A stretch of DNA of 64,000 nt from the human T2T-CHM13v2.0 reference genome, Homo sapiens: NCBI RefSeq assembly GCF_009914755.1, contig NC_060944.1; one strand, given 5' to 3'. The notes under the pieces were generated by a model. The model did no database searches and was not told where the DNA came from. It worked only from the letters and a program-made list of their open reading frames with translations. A program made the translations under genes and the position numbers. Positions 3,477 through 57,854 of the stretch are shown here, piece after piece; position 1 is the stretch's first letter, and every line of letters starts with the position of its first letter.

Positions 3477-3709
3477 GAGTAGAGGGTTCAACTCTCACTG
3501 TTGGCAGGTTTGACTGTGATTCCCATGACTTAGTCATCTAAAGTCTTTGGAATTATACACAAGTGTTTTTGTTAGAAGGCCCAAAGTTCCAATATCATTC
3601 TAGCATTGTCTTTCTCAGGAGATGATGCAATGGATGTGAATGCATTGTGTCCTCATCTGTTTTGTCTTCTTTTTTTTTGGTGAGAGGCCACTGAATTGAC
3701 ATGGGTCTC

Positions 3710-4052: not shown

Positions 4053-5348
4053 GTTTCTGAGCACTTGGTTTTGATCTGGCATGGTGAACAAAAGGGCATC
4101 AGTGTTAGAAAGCTGTCCTGTGTCCTGAGAGAGAGAAATAAATGGGCTTTCTTTCATGTGGATAAGAATTTATGTCTTAGTGAAGATGGCCTGTGAAATG
4201 GCCCTGGATTAAACACAAGCCTAAATCACAGTGTTCCATTATTTCCTAAAAGTGTCTCCACTGTAAGTTTGAGGAGAAGTGGTAGGAAAGTGGACAGGGT
4301 TTTCATTGCCTCTGTCTGTGCCACACCCGGTTAGTGGTTAAATGGAAGATTTCAGTCTCCAGAACTGTCAATCCATGACTTTATAATGGCATCAAATTTG
4401 TTTTAAAAAATTCATGCTGTGGGCTTTGAGGACATAATTGTAGCTCCTGAAAAGTTTGTTAAAGATTGCATTAGATAGATTCTTTTTAATGGACGGTCTG
4501 TATGCTTGGCCATTTATACTTCATAATAGTATATTTGGAGGATAAAAAAAGTATGTGAGTTAGAGGTTTTTCAGCAAATTTCACTACTATTGCTGTCCTT
4601 GTCCAAATGTCTTTGAAAATTTTATGGGAGAAAGAATTTTGTCCTTATTATGCTTGACTGAATAATTTGTTAAATTATGTTTTAAATCAGCATTTCCTCA
4701 AATTGAGAACAACTAATGCTAAAGTATATCATGGATTATTTTACATGCAATTTGCATAAAAGTTTTAAAAAGTCACTGCTTCAGTAGTACCAGAGGGCTG
4801 TCTAGAAAGATTGCACAAAACCAATGTCTAAGATGGATATTGTTGGTGTTCAGACCTTCTGTTATCTAATTATAAAAAAGCATAACATAGCCACCCAATT
4901 GAGTGCGCTCATAATCAAACATAACCATTTGAAGTAAAGTGGAAGCTTAATGTGAAACTGCTGATACAGCATTTTTAATTAAAGCTCCTTTGTATTTTGA
5001 GAGTAAAATTCTAAATTTCAGTATTTTGATGTTTTCTAAATGGTTCCCTCAAAATGCAGGAAGCAGCTCAGGGAGCTTCAGGGTTCAGGATGGCAGGGGC
5101 TGCTGTGGGGTTGGATGTCCAGGACCCAGGCCAGCTCTGCTCCCCAGCCCTCCAGCCCAAGCTTCATCCAAAACAGCTCCAGGGAATCTGTTTTATTTAT
5201 TGGACTCCTGCACAAGGTTTTTTGTGAAGACAGGAATCTATGGCTTTAAAAAGTTGGAAATCGATTGGAATAGTGGATAGAGATTCCAGGAGGAAGAGCT
5301 ATTTTTTAAATGTATGTAAGATAATGCAAGAGACCCATACTTAAAAGC

Positions 5349-52756: not shown

Positions 52757-53845
52757 ATTTATTGGTTTATTCAACCAATCTTTATTGAAGACCTACTATG
52801 TGCCAGGCCCTGTCCTAGGCACTGCAGATTCAGCAGTTAACAACGCATAGTTCCCTAACCTCACAGAACTTACTTTCTTATGAGGAAAGCAGAAATCAAA
52901 CACATGCTTACACAAAGGATCAATTTCATTAAAACTTGGTTACTCTCTTGAAGAAAAAAGTATAGAGCCATAAGAATATGTGATATGGGAGCCTCATCTA
53001 GCTTGGGGAGACTAGGAAGCCTTCCCAGGGAAAGTCACACTTAACCTGAGACCTTAGAGATTAATAGGAGAGTATCTGGAGCAGAGGGAAAGCATGTGCA
53101 AAGGTCCTGGGGAAGGAGCAGCTTCATGTTTGAAATACAGCAAGCAACCAGTGTGGCTGCAGAAGAGAGAGTGGGGAGGACAGTGAGAAGCAAGATGCAA
53201 AGAAAGTTTCAGGTCACAGATCCCATTACTGGGTATATACCCAAAGGATTATAAATCATGCTACTATAAAGACACATGCACATGTATGTTTATTACGGCA
53301 GTATTCACAATAGCAAAGGCTTGAAACCAACCCAAATGTCCATCAATGACAGACTGGACTAAGAAAATGTGGCACATATACACCATGGAATACTATGTAG
53401 CCATAAAAAAGATGAGTTCATGTCCTTTGCAGGGACATGGATGAAGCTGGAAACCATCATTCTAAGCAAACTATCACAAGGACAGAAAACCAAACACCAC
53501 ATGTTCTCACTAGTAGGTGGGAGTTGAACAACGGACAAAGGGCGGGGAACATCACACACCGGGGCCTGTCAGGGGGTAGGGGGTTGGGGGAGGGATAGCA
53601 TTAGGAGAAATACCTAATGTAAATGACAAGTTGATGGGTACAGCAAACCAACATGGCACATGCATACCTATGTAACAAATCTGCACGTTGTGCACATGTA
53701 CCCTAGAACTTAAAGTGTAATAAAAAAAAAAAAAGAAAAAAGTTTCGAGTCAAATTACTAGATCTGTGAAGGCCCGTTTCTGCCCTTATCCTGAAAGAAA
53801 TGAGGTGTCATTGAAGTGTTCCAAATAAGATAGGAAAGTCATCAA
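52757..53845 (-). mobile_element. L2 3' region split by an L1PA
   Basis: attcaaccaatctttattgaagacctactatgtgccaggccctgtcctaggcactg...agcatgtgcaaaggtcctgggg. Confidence 0.82.
53217..53738 (+). mobile_element. 5'-truncated L1PA (about L1PA5-7) 3' end
   Basis: atcccattactgggtatatacccaaagg...cacatgtaccctagaacttaaag plus A-tail; TSD aaagtttc(ag/ga)gtca at 53203-53216 and 53739-53752. Confidence 0.95.
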
Positions 53846-54608
53846 ATTTTAATTTTTAAAATTTTATTGAAATTAATTAGAAATAAAATTATGTTTACAC
53901 AGTGAGAGGAGTACGTCTTTAGCTTTCCTTGGATTCTCTTAAAAGAAGGAAGTTGACTCATACTCTTAAAGTGGGGTAAATTAGTAATGAGCTGGTGGTT
54001 GGAGGCAAAAGGGCTTACCTCCAATTATCTGTGTGTTAATCCAGTCCTATTCCAGGGACATTTTTGTCTGCAATCCTCAGAGATTTTATGAGATTGACTG
54101 GTTTTGTTTTGAATTAAATAAGAAATTGCTAAAGTGCCAGTTGTTCAAAATGTGTTTTTCCCCTTTGCTAAGTTTGCATGGATAGTTACTGGCAAACATA
54201 CCACGAGTACCTCCTATGCATCACGCCTTAGTTGTCAGGGCTAGAAATGACGTAGATGTATTCTCCGTAAGCCGTATAAATGCTGCTCAACCAAGTGTTT
54301 CATAAATGGCTGAATGACAAACAGGGTGTTCCCCATCAGGAGTGGATATGTAAATATCACAACCTGGCCCTTGTTAGAAGAGGTATATAAAAAAGAAAGT
54401 GCTGTGGAAGAAACCAATCCTTTTTGGGCATAAAAAGAATGAGAGATCAGAGAAGGGACATTTGATTTGGGCTTTGAAGAATAAATTGGAATTTCTGAGC
54501 AAAGAGTATAACATAAACAATGGTCAACATGCCTAACTGCTCAAAGTTTAGTTATTGTGTGATTTAAGAGTATAGTAACTCATATTTAATGGTGTATTTC
54601 AGTAGACT

Positions 54609-54789
54609 TAAAACTTAGCCTTAACCAAAGCAACAAGAGCTATGAAAACATGCATGTTCATTTCTTTAAATGTGTATTAGAAAACAAACTAAAATTAGCA
54701 CACGAACCCATGTTTTCATAGCTCTTGTTGCTTAAGGCTAAGTTTTTTTAAAAGGTTTGTTTCTAATGCACATTTAAAGAAATGAACAT
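54609..54789. repeat. Interleaved double inverted repeat A-B-spacer-A'-B'
   Basis: 54610-54652 is the reverse complement of 54709-54746; 54654-54689 is the reverse complement of 54755-54789. Confidence 0.93.
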
Positions 54790-54791
54790 CC

Positions 54792-55272
54792 TATAGCTTG
54801 CCTATCCAATGTCCATTTTCCCCCTTCCTCTTCTAACAGAACCCCAATGTATGAGGTTACCCACCCATCCTCCATGCAATCTTGTGCTTCAAGGAAAGCT
54901 GACCCCATTCCCACCTCAAGTAAATAGAACTTACTAAGACAGGTATCAGAATCTTGTTTTCCTTTCCAGTGATTGGCTCAGGAGAGGTCATATGATCCAG
55001 CTCTGGCCAATGAGAAGTAAGGAAAGATCTGCCCAGGGATTTCTGGGAAAAGTTTTCTCCTTAAGGAGACACCAGAGAGGACTTTTCTGCATTCTGTAGC
55101 TGCAGTAGCTCATCTTCCCACCAGGAAAAGAGCTAGCTTGCAGGTGATGCTAGTACATTAATGATGGCAGAATGGACACGTGGAAAGAATCTTGATGTTG
55201 ATGAATCACAGACCTATTCCCTTAAACGACTGTAGAGAGTTGCTCTGCCTCTGGACTTCTTACTCTATGAAA
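54792..55272 (+). mobile_element. MLT1 (MLT1J/K-like) LTR
   Basis: ccagtgattggctcagg...catatgatccagctctggccaatgaga...gatttctgggaaaagttttctcc...gcctctggacttct. Confidence 0.75.
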
Positions 55273-55274
55273 GA

Positions 55275-55590
55275 AAGTAAAGGGCCAGAGAGTTAATATT
55301 TTAGGCTTTACAGCCCAAGAGGCAAAATCAAGGGTATTATGTTGGTATTTATATAACAACAGGGAAAACAAATTTTGTCCAATTTTTTACTGATGAAATT
55401 CAAAATTTAATGAGAGTGTAATTTTTGTAATAAAGGTTTATTAATAAAAAAGGGATTATTTTCTTTTTAGTGCTCACTATCACCAAACTGAAAATACTCA
55501 TATGTAAAAACTATTCTTGATTGGCAGACCATATAGAAACAGGCAATGGGCCAGAATTCACTTGTAGGCTATCGTTTGCCATGCCCTGTT
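55275..55590. mobile_element. MER58-family hAT element (MER58D-like)
   Basis: gtaaagggccagagagttaatattttaggcttt...gggccagaattcacttgtaggctatcgtttgccatgccctg. Confidence 0.72.
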
Positions 55591-55774
55591 TTAAAGTAAT
55601 TTTTATTTTAAACTTTTTATTGGTTGAAAATTACTGTTCCCAAATAATATCTACTATTCATAGCCATGGTCATCATAATTGATACACATTAAACATTAAA
55701 AAATTCTCTATGAATCACCTCTAGCTGTCTTATATCCATAAAAGGGATGATTAAAAGATTTTGGGAAATAATAG

Positions 55775-55910
55775 TTTACTTTTGCTAAATACTTTTGTGC
55801 CAATTACTGGATTCTAAAATTATGTGCATGAGCTAATTTAATCTTTACAAAAATCCATCAGGTAGGCAGTATTATCATTATTTTGAAGATGAGGATATTA
55901 TGTCACAGAG
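55775..55910 (-). mobile_element. MIR fragment
   Basis: tttaatctttacaaaaatccatcaggtaggcagtattatcattattttgaagatgagga. Confidence 0.68.
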
Positions 55911-57854
55911 CACTTAGATGGTTCTCTGTTAAAGTGAGATTGGTTATTGTCTCTCTACTACTGTGCTGTTCAACTCTGATCTTTCCCTATTTATGTGCAA
56001 ATGAACCATATATATAAACTTGTTTCTGATTCGAACTTCCTAAACTAACTGGCACATTGCAGGGAAGTCAGTTATGGAAACAGATGATGCAGCTTTAAAA
56101 AAAATTATCATTACATTTCTTTATGGCTAAAGAGCATCTGGAACAATTTAAGAAATTAGAAGGAGAATAAGATGTTTTACAACATAATATGCCCCAGGAT
56201 TGCCATACAAGTGGGAAATGTGTTAGTTGAATTATGGCTCCGTGCTTTCCTTTTGTGGTATGCTTTATCCAGATCTCTGACATTACGGTACTGAGGTTGG
56301 CTCTTTATTTAGTTAGTTTTGAAAAATGTTCTTTAATTCTAGCATTCCAGGGAATAAAGTAGCACTCCAAATAATAATGCACGCTCAAGATGGAGAAATC
56401 AGACCCTTCGTGGGGAGAGAACAAAAATTAAAATGTGAATCATTAAAAAGCAAAACAAATAAATAAATAAGACTGTAAATAGACCCCTATAATTATATAT
56501 CGCACAAGAAAAGCCAACTCCAGATGGTTCGGTAATCTCATCACCAGCCTCACTAATAATCATTGTAACATTCTTGGTCTCTCCCTTAAGATAATGAGCA
56601 ATATGCACTAAAAAAAAAAAAGGTGTAAACATGAACTACAATTTCTCATCTAAATACAAAACAAAATAGAATGACTCACCTTAAGGTCTGCTAGTGTAGA
56701 GTGTTTTAATCTATAATCTTTCCCTTCCTTTAAAAGGTTAACCAATGGGGAAATACAACCAAATTATGAAAGTTGCCTTTCTAAGTAGACAATATGTTTC
56801 CCCCCGACTTCCTCCAAGGGTGGTCCCTTCTGAAATGAACCCAGAAAATTAATGCTCCAATAATTAAGCAAATTTAAAGACTATGATTAGTAAACAACTT
56901 TGTCACCCTTAAAGCTGTACCACTGCTAACATTTTTTAAAGTTTCCTAAGGCCCTTTCACCTTAGAAAATGATCGTTACTAGTTGAGCCAAGAAACAGTA
57001 TAGCATATAGCGCTTGTTATTATTTTTCTCCATACCTGCTGTTCCTTCTCTAGAATTTATTTTGAAGGACCAAAAAAAAAAAAAGAAAAAAATCTTCATT
57101 GATGGGGAAGAAAGGACCAAAAGAACATTATGCAAAACAGATGTAAAACCATCTCTATAATATTGCATGCTACTATTGAGCCTTTATTTCTGTCTTTTTT
57201 GCCTTGCAAGGCAGTTCTGCCCCAGACTCATAACTTTGTTTCCTCTCAATTAAGGTTGTTCAATATAAAATTGGATCATCTCAAACATACCTACCGGGAT
57301 GTAGAAAGAAAGATAAGTTTAGATTTTTTTTAATATGATGTTTTATCTGTTGGAGTGGGTTAAATTGCAATACTCTTTGAGCACATTCTGTTTTCCTGCT
57401 CCTTCAGGAAATCATCTGTGGCTCTGCTTCTTGGGTAATGTAGCCTACTTCATTGAAAAAAAGAGTAACTCAGTTTTGTTGCTTATACATGGGCTTCTGG
57501 ACTGCTTATGTGTTTGTGTATCACACACTCAATTCAAGGGCTCCCTTTGACTTTCTGCACTGAGCAGAGCAATTTCATTCAAATTTTCATTCAAAATTCA
57601 ATGTCGTCATCAGCCACCCAAATGCAAGGATGTGATTTAGGGATGAGTGATGTCAGTTATGAAGATTTCAAAGTCTATTTAAAATTTTCAAGAATGCTCT
57701 GCATTCCAATCACACACACTCTAGTCTAAGAAGTTCTGGCCATTCCTGTCATGTCATCTGGTGGATTTTTAATAATAAAATCCCTTATCTTTCTGCCCAA
57801 GGATCTGACCTATTTAGGAGCTTCTGGACTATTTTCATCTAGTCCCTTGGCTCA

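What the first reader, a model, noticed from the sequence alone, without database searches (positions are those of the whole stretch)
54609..54789. Inverted, circularly permuted ~81-bp copy: possible re-integration of a small DNA circle
Seen: A (54610-54652, aaaacttagccttaaccaaagcaacaagagctatgaaaacatg) is the reverse complement of 54709-54746 apart from 5 extra nt. B (54654-54689) is the reverse complement of 54755-54789 with one mismatch and one indel. A simple fold-back would give A-B-B'-A'; the order here is A-B-A'-B'. So 54609-54689 is the reverse complement of 54709-54789 with its two ends joined (aaaacatg|catgttc, at a catg/atg microhomology) and reopened in the middle. It is bracketed by taaaacttagc (54609-54619) and taaaattagc (54690-54699), which also resemble the donor at the reopening point. 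Inference: this is what microhomology-mediated integration of an ~80 bp circle would leave, or a multi-jump template switch (MMBIR or polymerase-theta-like). As ssDNA or RNA it has H-type pseudoknot topology, but the loops look too short for both ~36-bp stems, suggesting two mutually exclusive hairpins.
Basis: partly seen in the sequence, partly recalled or inferred. Interest (0 to 1): 0.8.

Follow-up and report, generated by a model that had tools for sequence, protein, structure and literature searches.

The report
Scar of a two-step inverted copy
About 81 bases in a gene-poor part of human chromosome 20 were copied backwards from next door in two out-of-order pieces, most likely a harmless scar of a DNA polymerase that switched templates several times.

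Summary
54610-54652 (A) and 54654-54690 (B) are reverse complements of 54709-54746 (A') and 53-54789 (B', 54753-54789), in the order A-B-A'-B'. They are the only two local inverted-repeat pairs of 18 nt or more in the 64-kb window. None appeared in 50 of 50 Markov resamples, and no interleaved pair appeared in 200 kb of other CHM13 DNA.

The locus is single-copy in CHM13 and the nearest old repeats stop at 54821, so it is not a transposon consensus. Rfam gives only sub-threshold hairpin matches.

Best reading (0.55): one complex templated insertion made by serial template switching. A 9-of-10 inverted microhomology (54691-54699 with 54737-54746, 37-nt spacer) serves for both entry and exit, and one internal jump occurs at a CATG. 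Complex multi-template insertions of this kind are already described as human germline variants (PMC8421209).

Rivals are two separate switch events, copying of an 81-nt circle, and a transposon or RNA gene. Which block is the copy cannot be settled, because the structure reads almost equally well in both directions and no ortholog was available. As RNA or ssDNA it forms two mutually exclusive hairpins. No function is indicated.

The parts
54610..54652 (.). Block A (word a1 at 54610-54619 plus X): reverse complement of 54709-54746, with 5 extra nt at about 54623-54627
   Evidence: (I2, I3)
54647..54658 (.). Perfect 12-nt palindrome spanning the A/B joint; base 54653 matches neither donor flank
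54654..54690 (.). Block B: reverse complement of 54753-54789 (1 substitution, 1 one-base indel)
   Evidence: (I1)
54691..54699 (.). Word a2: a 9-of-10 direct match to 54610-54619 and a 9-of-10 inverted match to 54737-54746, 37 nt away. Proposed priming and landing microhomology.
54700..54708 (.). Unique spacer between the blocks, with no partner. Its end resembles the end of B' (gaac...)
54709..54746 (.). Block A' (X' plus word a' at 54737-54746)
54747..54752 (.). T/A-run linker between A' and B'. Its counterpart beside 54690 is shortened by about 8 nt.
54753..54789 (.). Block B'

Best explanation
This is a neutral scar of one complex templated insertion of about 81 nt, made by serial short-range template switching (replication-based, FoSTeS/MMBIR-like, or the equivalent snap-back synthesis during break repair).

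In the direction I favour (about 60:40), the minus strand was being synthesised leftwards.
1. It had just copied the word at 54691-54699. Its 3' end came off and folded back onto the near-complementary word at 54737-54746, on a strand of its own polarity. That is a 9-of-10 match with a 37-nt loop.
2. It copied the linker and B' up to 54789.
3. It jumped back 81 nt to the CATG at 54709 and copied A' up to the same word at 54737-54746.
4. That freshly copied word re-annealed to the original template word, and normal synthesis resumed.

The product carries A-c-B in front of the old word, so the two inverted-repeat pairs are interleaved. In the opposite direction (54709-54789 as the insertion) the same three joints are used with their roles swapped. 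The element has no indicated function. In the intron RNA of LOC105372666, or as ssDNA, it can only choose between two hairpins.

Shown: the anatomy, its non-randomness, single-copy status, and the fold energies. Inferred: that it was one event, the order of the jumps, the direction, and the enzymes.
For: - Two tracts are needed. One contiguous reverse-complement fragment explains only half of the block (score 68 against 131 for the unrolled donor).
- Both tracts come from within 100 bp and are inverted.
- The same 9-of-10 word sits at the start of A and just after B, and once in the partner block. One microhomology therefore explains both entry and exit.
- Such pre-existing inverted words are common. 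406 of 37,303 sampled 10-mers (1.1%) have an inverted partner within 1 edit, 20-120 nt downstream.
- The outer ends of the tracts are sharp and are joined at a CATG.
- The copies differ by 1 substitution but 5 gaps, which fits sloppy synthesis and/or A/T-run slippage.
- The locus is single-copy in CHM13.
- Literature. Complex germline templated insertions with several switches were 33 of 103 and 26 of 99 calls of 25 bp or more in two people, with templates within about 100 bp and junction 'microhomeology' up to 12-17 bp (PMC8421209: section 10 part 1 and passages). Yeast fold-back inversions are primed by a 10-bp imperfect inverted microhomology with a 41-nt spacer (PMC11724301, passages). Pol theta alternates between snap-back, in-trans and untemplated synthesis (PMC4912351, passages). 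Intra-strand switching is part of the four-point model (PMC5453318, passages).
Against: - No ancestral (empty) allele was seen. No ortholog or second human genome was available, so 'insertion', 'one event' and the direction are all inferences.
- The internal joint is not a clean microhomology join. It keeps both CATG copies, or carries 1 unmatched base.
- The joint at the linker needs an extra change of about 8 nt in an A/T run.
- Tracts of 38-53 nt and a total of 81 nt are long compared with the sizes quoted for Pol theta (median 7 bp in vitro) and for yeast fold-backs (mostly about 5-34 bp, abstract).
- The event is not in the great-ape template-switch catalogue within GRCh38 52.51-52.57 Mb on any chromosome except chr14.
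Confidence: 0.55

Rival explanations
1. Two separate, ordinary single template-switch mutations at the same spot. The first is a fold-back expansion of the small quasi-palindrome (54691-54699 with 54737-54746) that added B. The second, later, copied A' to the left of B.
For: Each step alone fits the four-point model (PMC5453318). Inverted repeats are reported to be expanded by switching (PMC13100816, abstract in the listing only). B/B' has 1 substitution and A/A' has 0, which is the ordering expected if B were older.
Against: 1 substitution against 0 is not a significant difference. The second step would have to return to the template with at most about 1 nt of microhomology, whereas the one-event model returns on a 9-of-10 word. 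Two rare events within 100 bp and within about 1% divergence is less parsimonious.
Confidence: 0.2
2. A small circle, or a discrete 81-nt fragment copied end to end, was the template. 54709-54789 (or the other block) was excised and circularised, then copied for about 1.1 laps or opened and inserted.
For: The block aligns colinearly to the unrolled circle over 90 nt, about 1.1 laps. The joint between the donor's two outer ends is blunt with 1 extra base, as an end-to-end join would be. eccDNA 'from tens of base pairs' and re-integration are described in a review (PMC9527254, abstract and passages).
Against: The 'second lap' word at 54691-54699 is imperfect and the linker beside it is cut by about 8 nt, while the first copy of the word is exact. 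The size is under the 100-400 bp quoted for microDNA. From general knowledge of DNA stiffness, not tested here, an 81-bp double-stranded circle would be strongly strained. The re-integration cases cited in that review concern large oncogene circles. Both outer junctions would then lack microhomology.
Confidence: 0.1
3. It is inherited structure: part of a transposon or MITE consensus, a structured-RNA or miRNA gene kept by selection, or an assembly artefact.
For: The RNA fold is very stable (-67.1 kcal/mol, z -9.8, 0 of 200 shuffles as good). Rfam gives weak hairpin-type matches (best MIR161, 42.2 bits, E 4e-07). The locus lies in an intron of a lncRNA (hub annotation).
Against: No other copy exists in 3.1 Gb of CHM13. 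The nearest repeat families cover only 54821-55072 and 55274-55592. A transposon too old to detect could not keep arms 95-100% alike. All Rfam matches are far below their gathering scores (42 against 90 for the best), and the top ones are plant miRNA families. The 56-nt loop is large for a pri-miRNA (general knowledge). The structure is 180 bp of ordinary sequence in a T2T assembly, which makes an artefact unlikely (inference).
Confidence: 0.05

Closest known systems
Complex microhomology-mediated templated insertions (MMB-TI, class 'complex'), Osia et al. 2021, PMC8421209
   Same: Short insertion copied from templates within about 100 bp, in inverted orientation, with several consecutive switches and imperfect microhomology at junctions. 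Found as germline variants in normal people.
   Different: Here both tracts come from one contiguous 81-nt donor and are joined in swapped order, so the result is a circular permutation and an interleaved pair of inverted repeats. I saw no such case described in the passages I read; the figures and supplementary data of that paper were not read.
Four-point-model template switch mutations, Loytynoja and Goldman 2017, PMC5453318; great-ape catalogue PMC7954356
   Same: Local switch to the nascent or opposite strand, a reverse-complement copy, and creation of hairpin-forming repeats.
   Different: The model allows one contiguous 2->3 fragment, and the authors state that they do not model multiple successive rounds. 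This locus needs two fragments.
Local fold-back inversions at double-strand breaks in yeast, PMC11724301
   Same: Priming by a 10-bp imperfect inverted microhomology with a 41-nt spacer there, against a 9-of-10 word with a 37-nt spacer here.
   Different: The yeast events are mostly about 5-34 bp, single-tract and completed by NHEJ. Here there are two tracts of about 38-53 nt, and the exit looks homology-guided.
Polymerase theta snap-back templated insertions, Kent et al. 2016, PMC4912351
   Same: Alternation of templated-in-cis tracts with a few untemplated bases in one product. The single unmatched base at 54653 would fit.
   Different: The median insertion quoted is 7 bp, against 81 nt here. 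No evidence on the enzyme is possible from sequence.
microDNA / eccDNA re-integration (review PMC9527254)
   Same: The two ends of a short genomic segment are joined head to tail, and the segment reappears in the chromosome.
   Different: The size is below the quoted 100-400 bp. The copy is inverted, lies 18 bp from its source, and is bracketed by a word that looks like a primer site rather than part of the circle.

Membership tests
Complex templated insertion / serial template switching (MMB-TI 'complex', FoSTeS/MMBIR-type) | Inserted sequence matches a template nearby (about 100 bp) | tested here: met
   The blocks lie 18-100 bp apart, with 82 of 83 aligned columns identical.
Complex templated insertion / serial template switching (MMB-TI 'complex', FoSTeS/MMBIR-type) | Two or more template tracts that are not colinear in the template | tested here: met
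   A single reverse-complement copy explains only A (score 68). The unrolled donor explains A+B+word (score 131).
Complex templated insertion / serial template switching (MMB-TI 'complex', FoSTeS/MMBIR-type) | Microhomology or microhomeology at the switch points | tested here: inconclusive
   Entry and exit use a 9-of-10 word. The internal joint has CATG but keeps both copies, or 1 unmatched base. The linker joint needs an indel of about 8 nt.
Complex templated insertion / serial template switching (MMB-TI 'complex', FoSTeS/MMBIR-type) | Derived state relative to an empty ancestral allele, arising on one branch | not testable with these tools
   No primate or second human genome is held. Exact-word scans of genome contigs and viral contigs for stray copies gave 0 hits.
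Single four-point template switch mutation | One contiguous reverse-complement fragment replaces the 1->4 interval | tested here: not met
   The model's authors exclude multiple rounds.
Transposable element / MITE with terminal inverted repeats | Other copies in the genome | tested here: not met
   Queries of 281 and 101 bases found only the locus itself and its own inverted halves. The 2001-base query gave non-self matches only at 55274-55592. The tool skips very common words, and only the best candidates are scored.
Transposable element / MITE with terminal inverted repeats | Target-site duplication flanking the inverted termini | tested here: not met
   The repeated word brackets A-B (54609-54619 and 54690-54699), not an A...A' or B...B' unit.
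eccDNA / microDNA re-integration | Head-to-tail junction of the source segment present in the inserted copy | tested here: met
   Source positions 54789 and 54709 are adjacent (1 base between them) in the copy at 54652-54654. The same joint is expected from a template jump.
eccDNA / microDNA re-integration | Size in the described range, and a circle actually observed | tested here: not met
   81 nt against the 100-400 bp quoted. The existence of a circle is not testable here.
Rfam RNA family (miRNA precursor or other) | Score at or above the family's gathering threshold | tested here: not met
   The best match is 42.2 bits against a gathering score of 90 (MIR161). 12 matches at E up to 10, none at threshold.

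The most novel reading that the evidence does not exclude
The template was a discrete 81-nt molecule: a single-stranded DNA circle, or a fragment copied end to end, made from 54709-54789 (or from the other block). A polymerase ran about 1.1 laps around it before the product was built back into the chromosome 18 bp away. That would be a germline-fixed footprint of rolling-circle copying of a sub-100-nt circle in a human genome.
Probability: 0.1. Interest if true: 0.65.

Novelty: new member of a known kind. Interest (0 to 1): 0.3.

Why it matters
On its own the locus matters little. It is a probably neutral scar in a lncRNA intron in a gene desert.

Its use is as a clean, fully resolved example showing that local template switching can run for more than one round in the germline, and that the result is an interleaved (A-B-A'-B') pair of inverted repeats. 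The standard four-point scans exclude multi-round events by design. A scan for this signature across T2T primate and pangenome assemblies could therefore measure how often multi-round switching happens. It could also show whether the second template is usually the loop of the first fold-back, as it is here.

Tried and rejected
- **Transposon or repeat origin.** Five searches of the whole CHM13 genome found no second copy. I fetched 10 copies of the nearest old repeat hoping they would span the site and act as an outgroup. Their homology covers only 54821-55072, and 54948-55075 among themselves, so they give no outgroup.
- **RNA family.** Rfam at E up to 10 over 53000-56500 gave only sub-threshold hairpin matches.
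- **Stray human or primate copies in other collections.** An exact 20-base flank word gave 0 hits in genome contigs and 0 in viral contigs.
- **Great-ape template-switch catalogue (PMC7954356 supplements).** Two phrase searches were uninformative: a control phrase known to be in the file also failed. Number-prefix searches 5251-5256 found only one chr14 event.
- **Background scan for the signature.** Only 200 kb could be fetched.
- **DNA-parameter refolding with constraints.** It printed the same numbers as RNA, so the parameter switch failed. DNA energies are taken only.
- **Full H-type pseudoknot.** Rejected on geometry (general knowledge, not computed): the loops are 1 nt and 6 nt against stems of 36-38 bp.
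- **Polarising the event from the 5-nt indel, the linker or the junctions.** Each reads equally well in both directions.
- **DUP-TRP/INV-DUP and simple fold-back (A-B-B'-A') models.** These do not give the observed order.

Full report
**What is there.**
- Block A (54610-54652) is the reverse complement of A' (54709-54746). The match is 25 nt at 100% (54628-54652 with 54709-54733) and 19 nt at 95% (54610-54628 with 54728-54746), offset by 5 extra bases in A.
- Block B (54654-54690) is the reverse complement of B' (54753-54789): 37 nt at 89% without gaps, or 1 substitution and 1 one-base indel with gaps.
- The order is A-B-A'-B', not the A-B-B'-A' of a fold-back.
- Aligned against the reverse complement of 54709-54789 written twice in tandem, 54610-54699 aligns colinearly over 90 nt. 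The score is 131, with 82 matches, 1 substitution and gaps of 5, 1, 1, 4 and 4. A single copy explains only A (score 68).
- The word at 54610-54619 recurs at 54691-54699 as a 9-of-10 match. Its inverted partner occurs once, at 54737-54746, 37 nt from 54699.
- The A/B joint lies in a perfect 12-nt palindrome (54647-54658). Base 54653 matches neither donor flank.
- The locus is 29.8% G+C, against 38.9% for the window.

**Is it more than chance?**
I scanned for inverted repeats with a 10-nt exact seed, arms of 18 nt or more, at least 85% identity and starts within 400 nt, dropping low-complexity arms.
- The whole 64-kb window has 2 pairs, both at this locus and interleaved.
- 50 of 50 second-order Markov resamples of the window have none.
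- 200,000 bases from 20 other places of the same genome hold 27 pairs and 0 interleaved. By eye most are pieces of oppositely oriented Alu-like elements and TA-rich simple repeats; that recognition is from memory.
- A larger sample could not be drawn.

**Is it a repeat family or an RNA gene?**
The genome (CHM13, 3.1 Gb) was searched with several queries.
- 54560-54840 and 54700-54800: only the locus itself and its own inverted halves match.
- 53800-55800: 233 first-look candidates, of which 40 were scored. All non-self matches fall on window 55274-55592, an old interspersed repeat at 71-85% identity.
- Left flank 53800-54608: one 43-nt match elsewhere.
- Right flank 54790-55270: 10 weak matches (69-90%) on window 54821-55072.

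I fetched those 10 places with flanks. Their similarity to the window stays within 54821-55072, and their colinear similarity to each other within 54948-55075. That family therefore neither contains the locus nor supplies an outgroup for it.

A transposon young enough to keep arms 95-100% alike should have detectable copies. One too old to detect could not have kept such arms. This is inference. The caveats are that the tool skips very common words and scores only the best candidates, and that Dfam was not available.

Rfam gives 12 matches at E up to 10 in 53000-56500. The best is MIR161 at 42.2 bits against a gathering score of 90. All matches at the locus are generic long-hairpin matches, and the top ones belong to plant miRNA families.

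**Folding.**
- As RNA, 54600-54800 folds at -67.1 kcal/mol into the A:A' hairpin (z -9.8; 0 of 200 shuffles as good).
- As DNA it folds at -44.3 kcal/mol (z -9.5).
- With A blocked, the B:B' hairpin forms at -49.9. With B blocked the energy is -59.6. With both blocked it is -15.2 (RNA parameters). The DNA-labelled half printed the same numbers and is disregarded.
- A pseudoknot with both full stems would need a 1-nt loop and a 6-nt loop to cross helices of 36-38 bp. From the known geometry of H-type pseudoknots (general knowledge, not computed) this is not possible.
- So there are two mutually exclusive hairpins, with A:A' favoured by about 17 kcal/mol.

**How it most likely arose.**
One contiguous inverted copy cannot give this order, so a single 'four-point' template switch is excluded. 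The authors of that model say they do not treat multiple rounds (PMC5453318, passages).

The simplest single-event path is the following.
1. A nascent minus strand, synthesised leftwards, has just copied the word at 54691-54699.
2. Its 3' end peels off and folds back on the near-complementary word at 54737-54746 (9 of 10, 37-nt loop).
3. It copies the linker and B' to 54789.
4. It jumps back to the CATG at 54709, which is the start of the loop of the first fold-back, and copies A' up to the word again.
5. That word re-anneals to the still-intact template word, so synthesis resumes exactly where it left.

This explains several features at once:
- why the bracket word occurs twice on one side and once on the other;
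- why the left copy of the word is exactly donor-type and the right copy imperfect;
- why entry and exit coincide;
- why the two tracts together make up one contiguous 81-nt source.

A pre-existing inverted word of this quality is no coincidence problem. 406 of 37,303 sampled 10-mers (1.1%) in 264 kb have an inverted partner within 1 edit, 20-120 nt downstream.

**What does not fit cleanly.**
- The internal joint keeps both CATGs, or has one unmatched base. A later 4-nt duplication or an untemplated base would be needed.
- The linker joint differs by about 8 nt in an A/T run.

**What cannot be decided.**
- **Direction.** The structure is nearly self-dual. If 54709-54789 is the insertion instead, the same three joints are used: entry and exit at the weak 'gaac' similarity between 54703-54708 and the end of B', and the internal jump on the 9-of-10 word. 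I favour the first direction about 60:40, because the stronger homology then serves the two steps that need priming and landing. Only an outgroup can settle it.
- **Replication error or break repair.** An exit guided by the same word that primed entry requires both the nascent end and the template to retain that word. This is natural for a dissociated nascent strand and awkward for a clean double-strand break (inference).
- **Age.** The copies differ by 1 substitution in 83 aligned columns. With recalled neutral rates of 0.5-1 x 10^-9 per site per year, this gives roughly 6-12 million years, but the Poisson range runs from well under 1 to tens of millions of years.
- **Gaps.** Five gaps against one substitution is far more than the roughly 1:7 indel-to-substitution ratio I recall for human-chimpanzee divergence. 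This suggests that most gaps date from the copying itself or sit in slippage-prone runs (inference).

**Comparison with what is known.**
- The closest described kind is the 'complex' class of microhomology-mediated templated insertions. Among germline calls of 25 bp or more in two people, 33 of 103 and 26 of 99 were complex, with several switches. Templates lay within about 100 bp and imperfect junction homology reached 12-17 bp (PMC8421209; I read section 10 part 1 and passages).
- A yeast study shows fold-back priming at a 10-bp imperfect inverted microhomology with a 41-nt spacer. That is almost the geometry seen here, but with single tracts of mostly about 5-34 bp (PMC11724301; listing abstract and passages).
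- Pol theta alternates between snap-back, in-trans and untemplated synthesis, with a median insertion of 7 bp in vitro (PMC4912351, passages).
- What I did not find described, in the passages read and in the search ('templated insertion', 'circularly permuted', 'rolling circle', 'template switching', 'inverted duplication'; 43 papers holding at least 3 of the 5 terms, 12 listed, none with 'circularly permuted'), is the particular outcome here: two tracts from one contiguous source rejoined in swapped order. That search does not show absence from print. Figures and most supplements were not read.

**The circle idea.**
It stays possible at about 0.1. The joint between the donor's outer ends is blunt, and the copy is colinear with 1.1 laps. 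Against it:
- the 'second-lap' word is the imperfect one;
- the neighbouring linker is mangled;
- the size is below the 100-400 bp quoted for microDNA (PMC9527254, passages);
- the outer junctions would then lack homology.

An empty allele that still carries the word at 54691-54699 would dispose of it.

**Verdict.**
This is a real and statistically solid micro-rearrangement. It is very probably a neutral scar of multi-round local template switching, and so a new, unusually tidy member of a known kind. Interest is modest. It would rise if orthologs or a genome-wide scan showed that this signature is recurrent, or that a small circle was involved.

Noticed in passing
window 55274-55592 (core 55277-55468): An old interspersed repeat with at least 40 scored copies across the genome at 71-85% identity (233 first-look candidates). 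The family was not named.
   Followed up: no
window 54821-55072: A weak ancient repeat, with 10 matches at 69-90% identity. Colinear homology among the copies covers only about 54948-55075. It contains its own small inverted repeat, 54958-54977 with 55006-55025 (20 nt, 75%).
   Followed up: partly
window 54451-54493: An isolated 43-nt match at 91% identity to G000:C9:135328743-135328785 on the minus strand. Unexplained.
   Followed up: no
L038 1978-2033 / 2342-2397 (G000:C12:5001978-5002397): A 56-nt inverted repeat at 96% identity with a spacer of about 300 nt. It does not look Alu-like and may be another local inverted duplication.
   Followed up: no
L028 3344-3378 / 3650-3684 (G000:C2:5003344-5003684): A 35-nt inverted repeat at 94% identity with a spacer of about 270 nt, not Alu-like by eye.
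   Followed up: no
L019, L022, L025, L017 flanks: Non-colinear matches of 70-82% identity over 150-290 nt between the flanks of the fetched repeat copies. These are presumably common interspersed repeats next to them; not examined.
   Followed up: no
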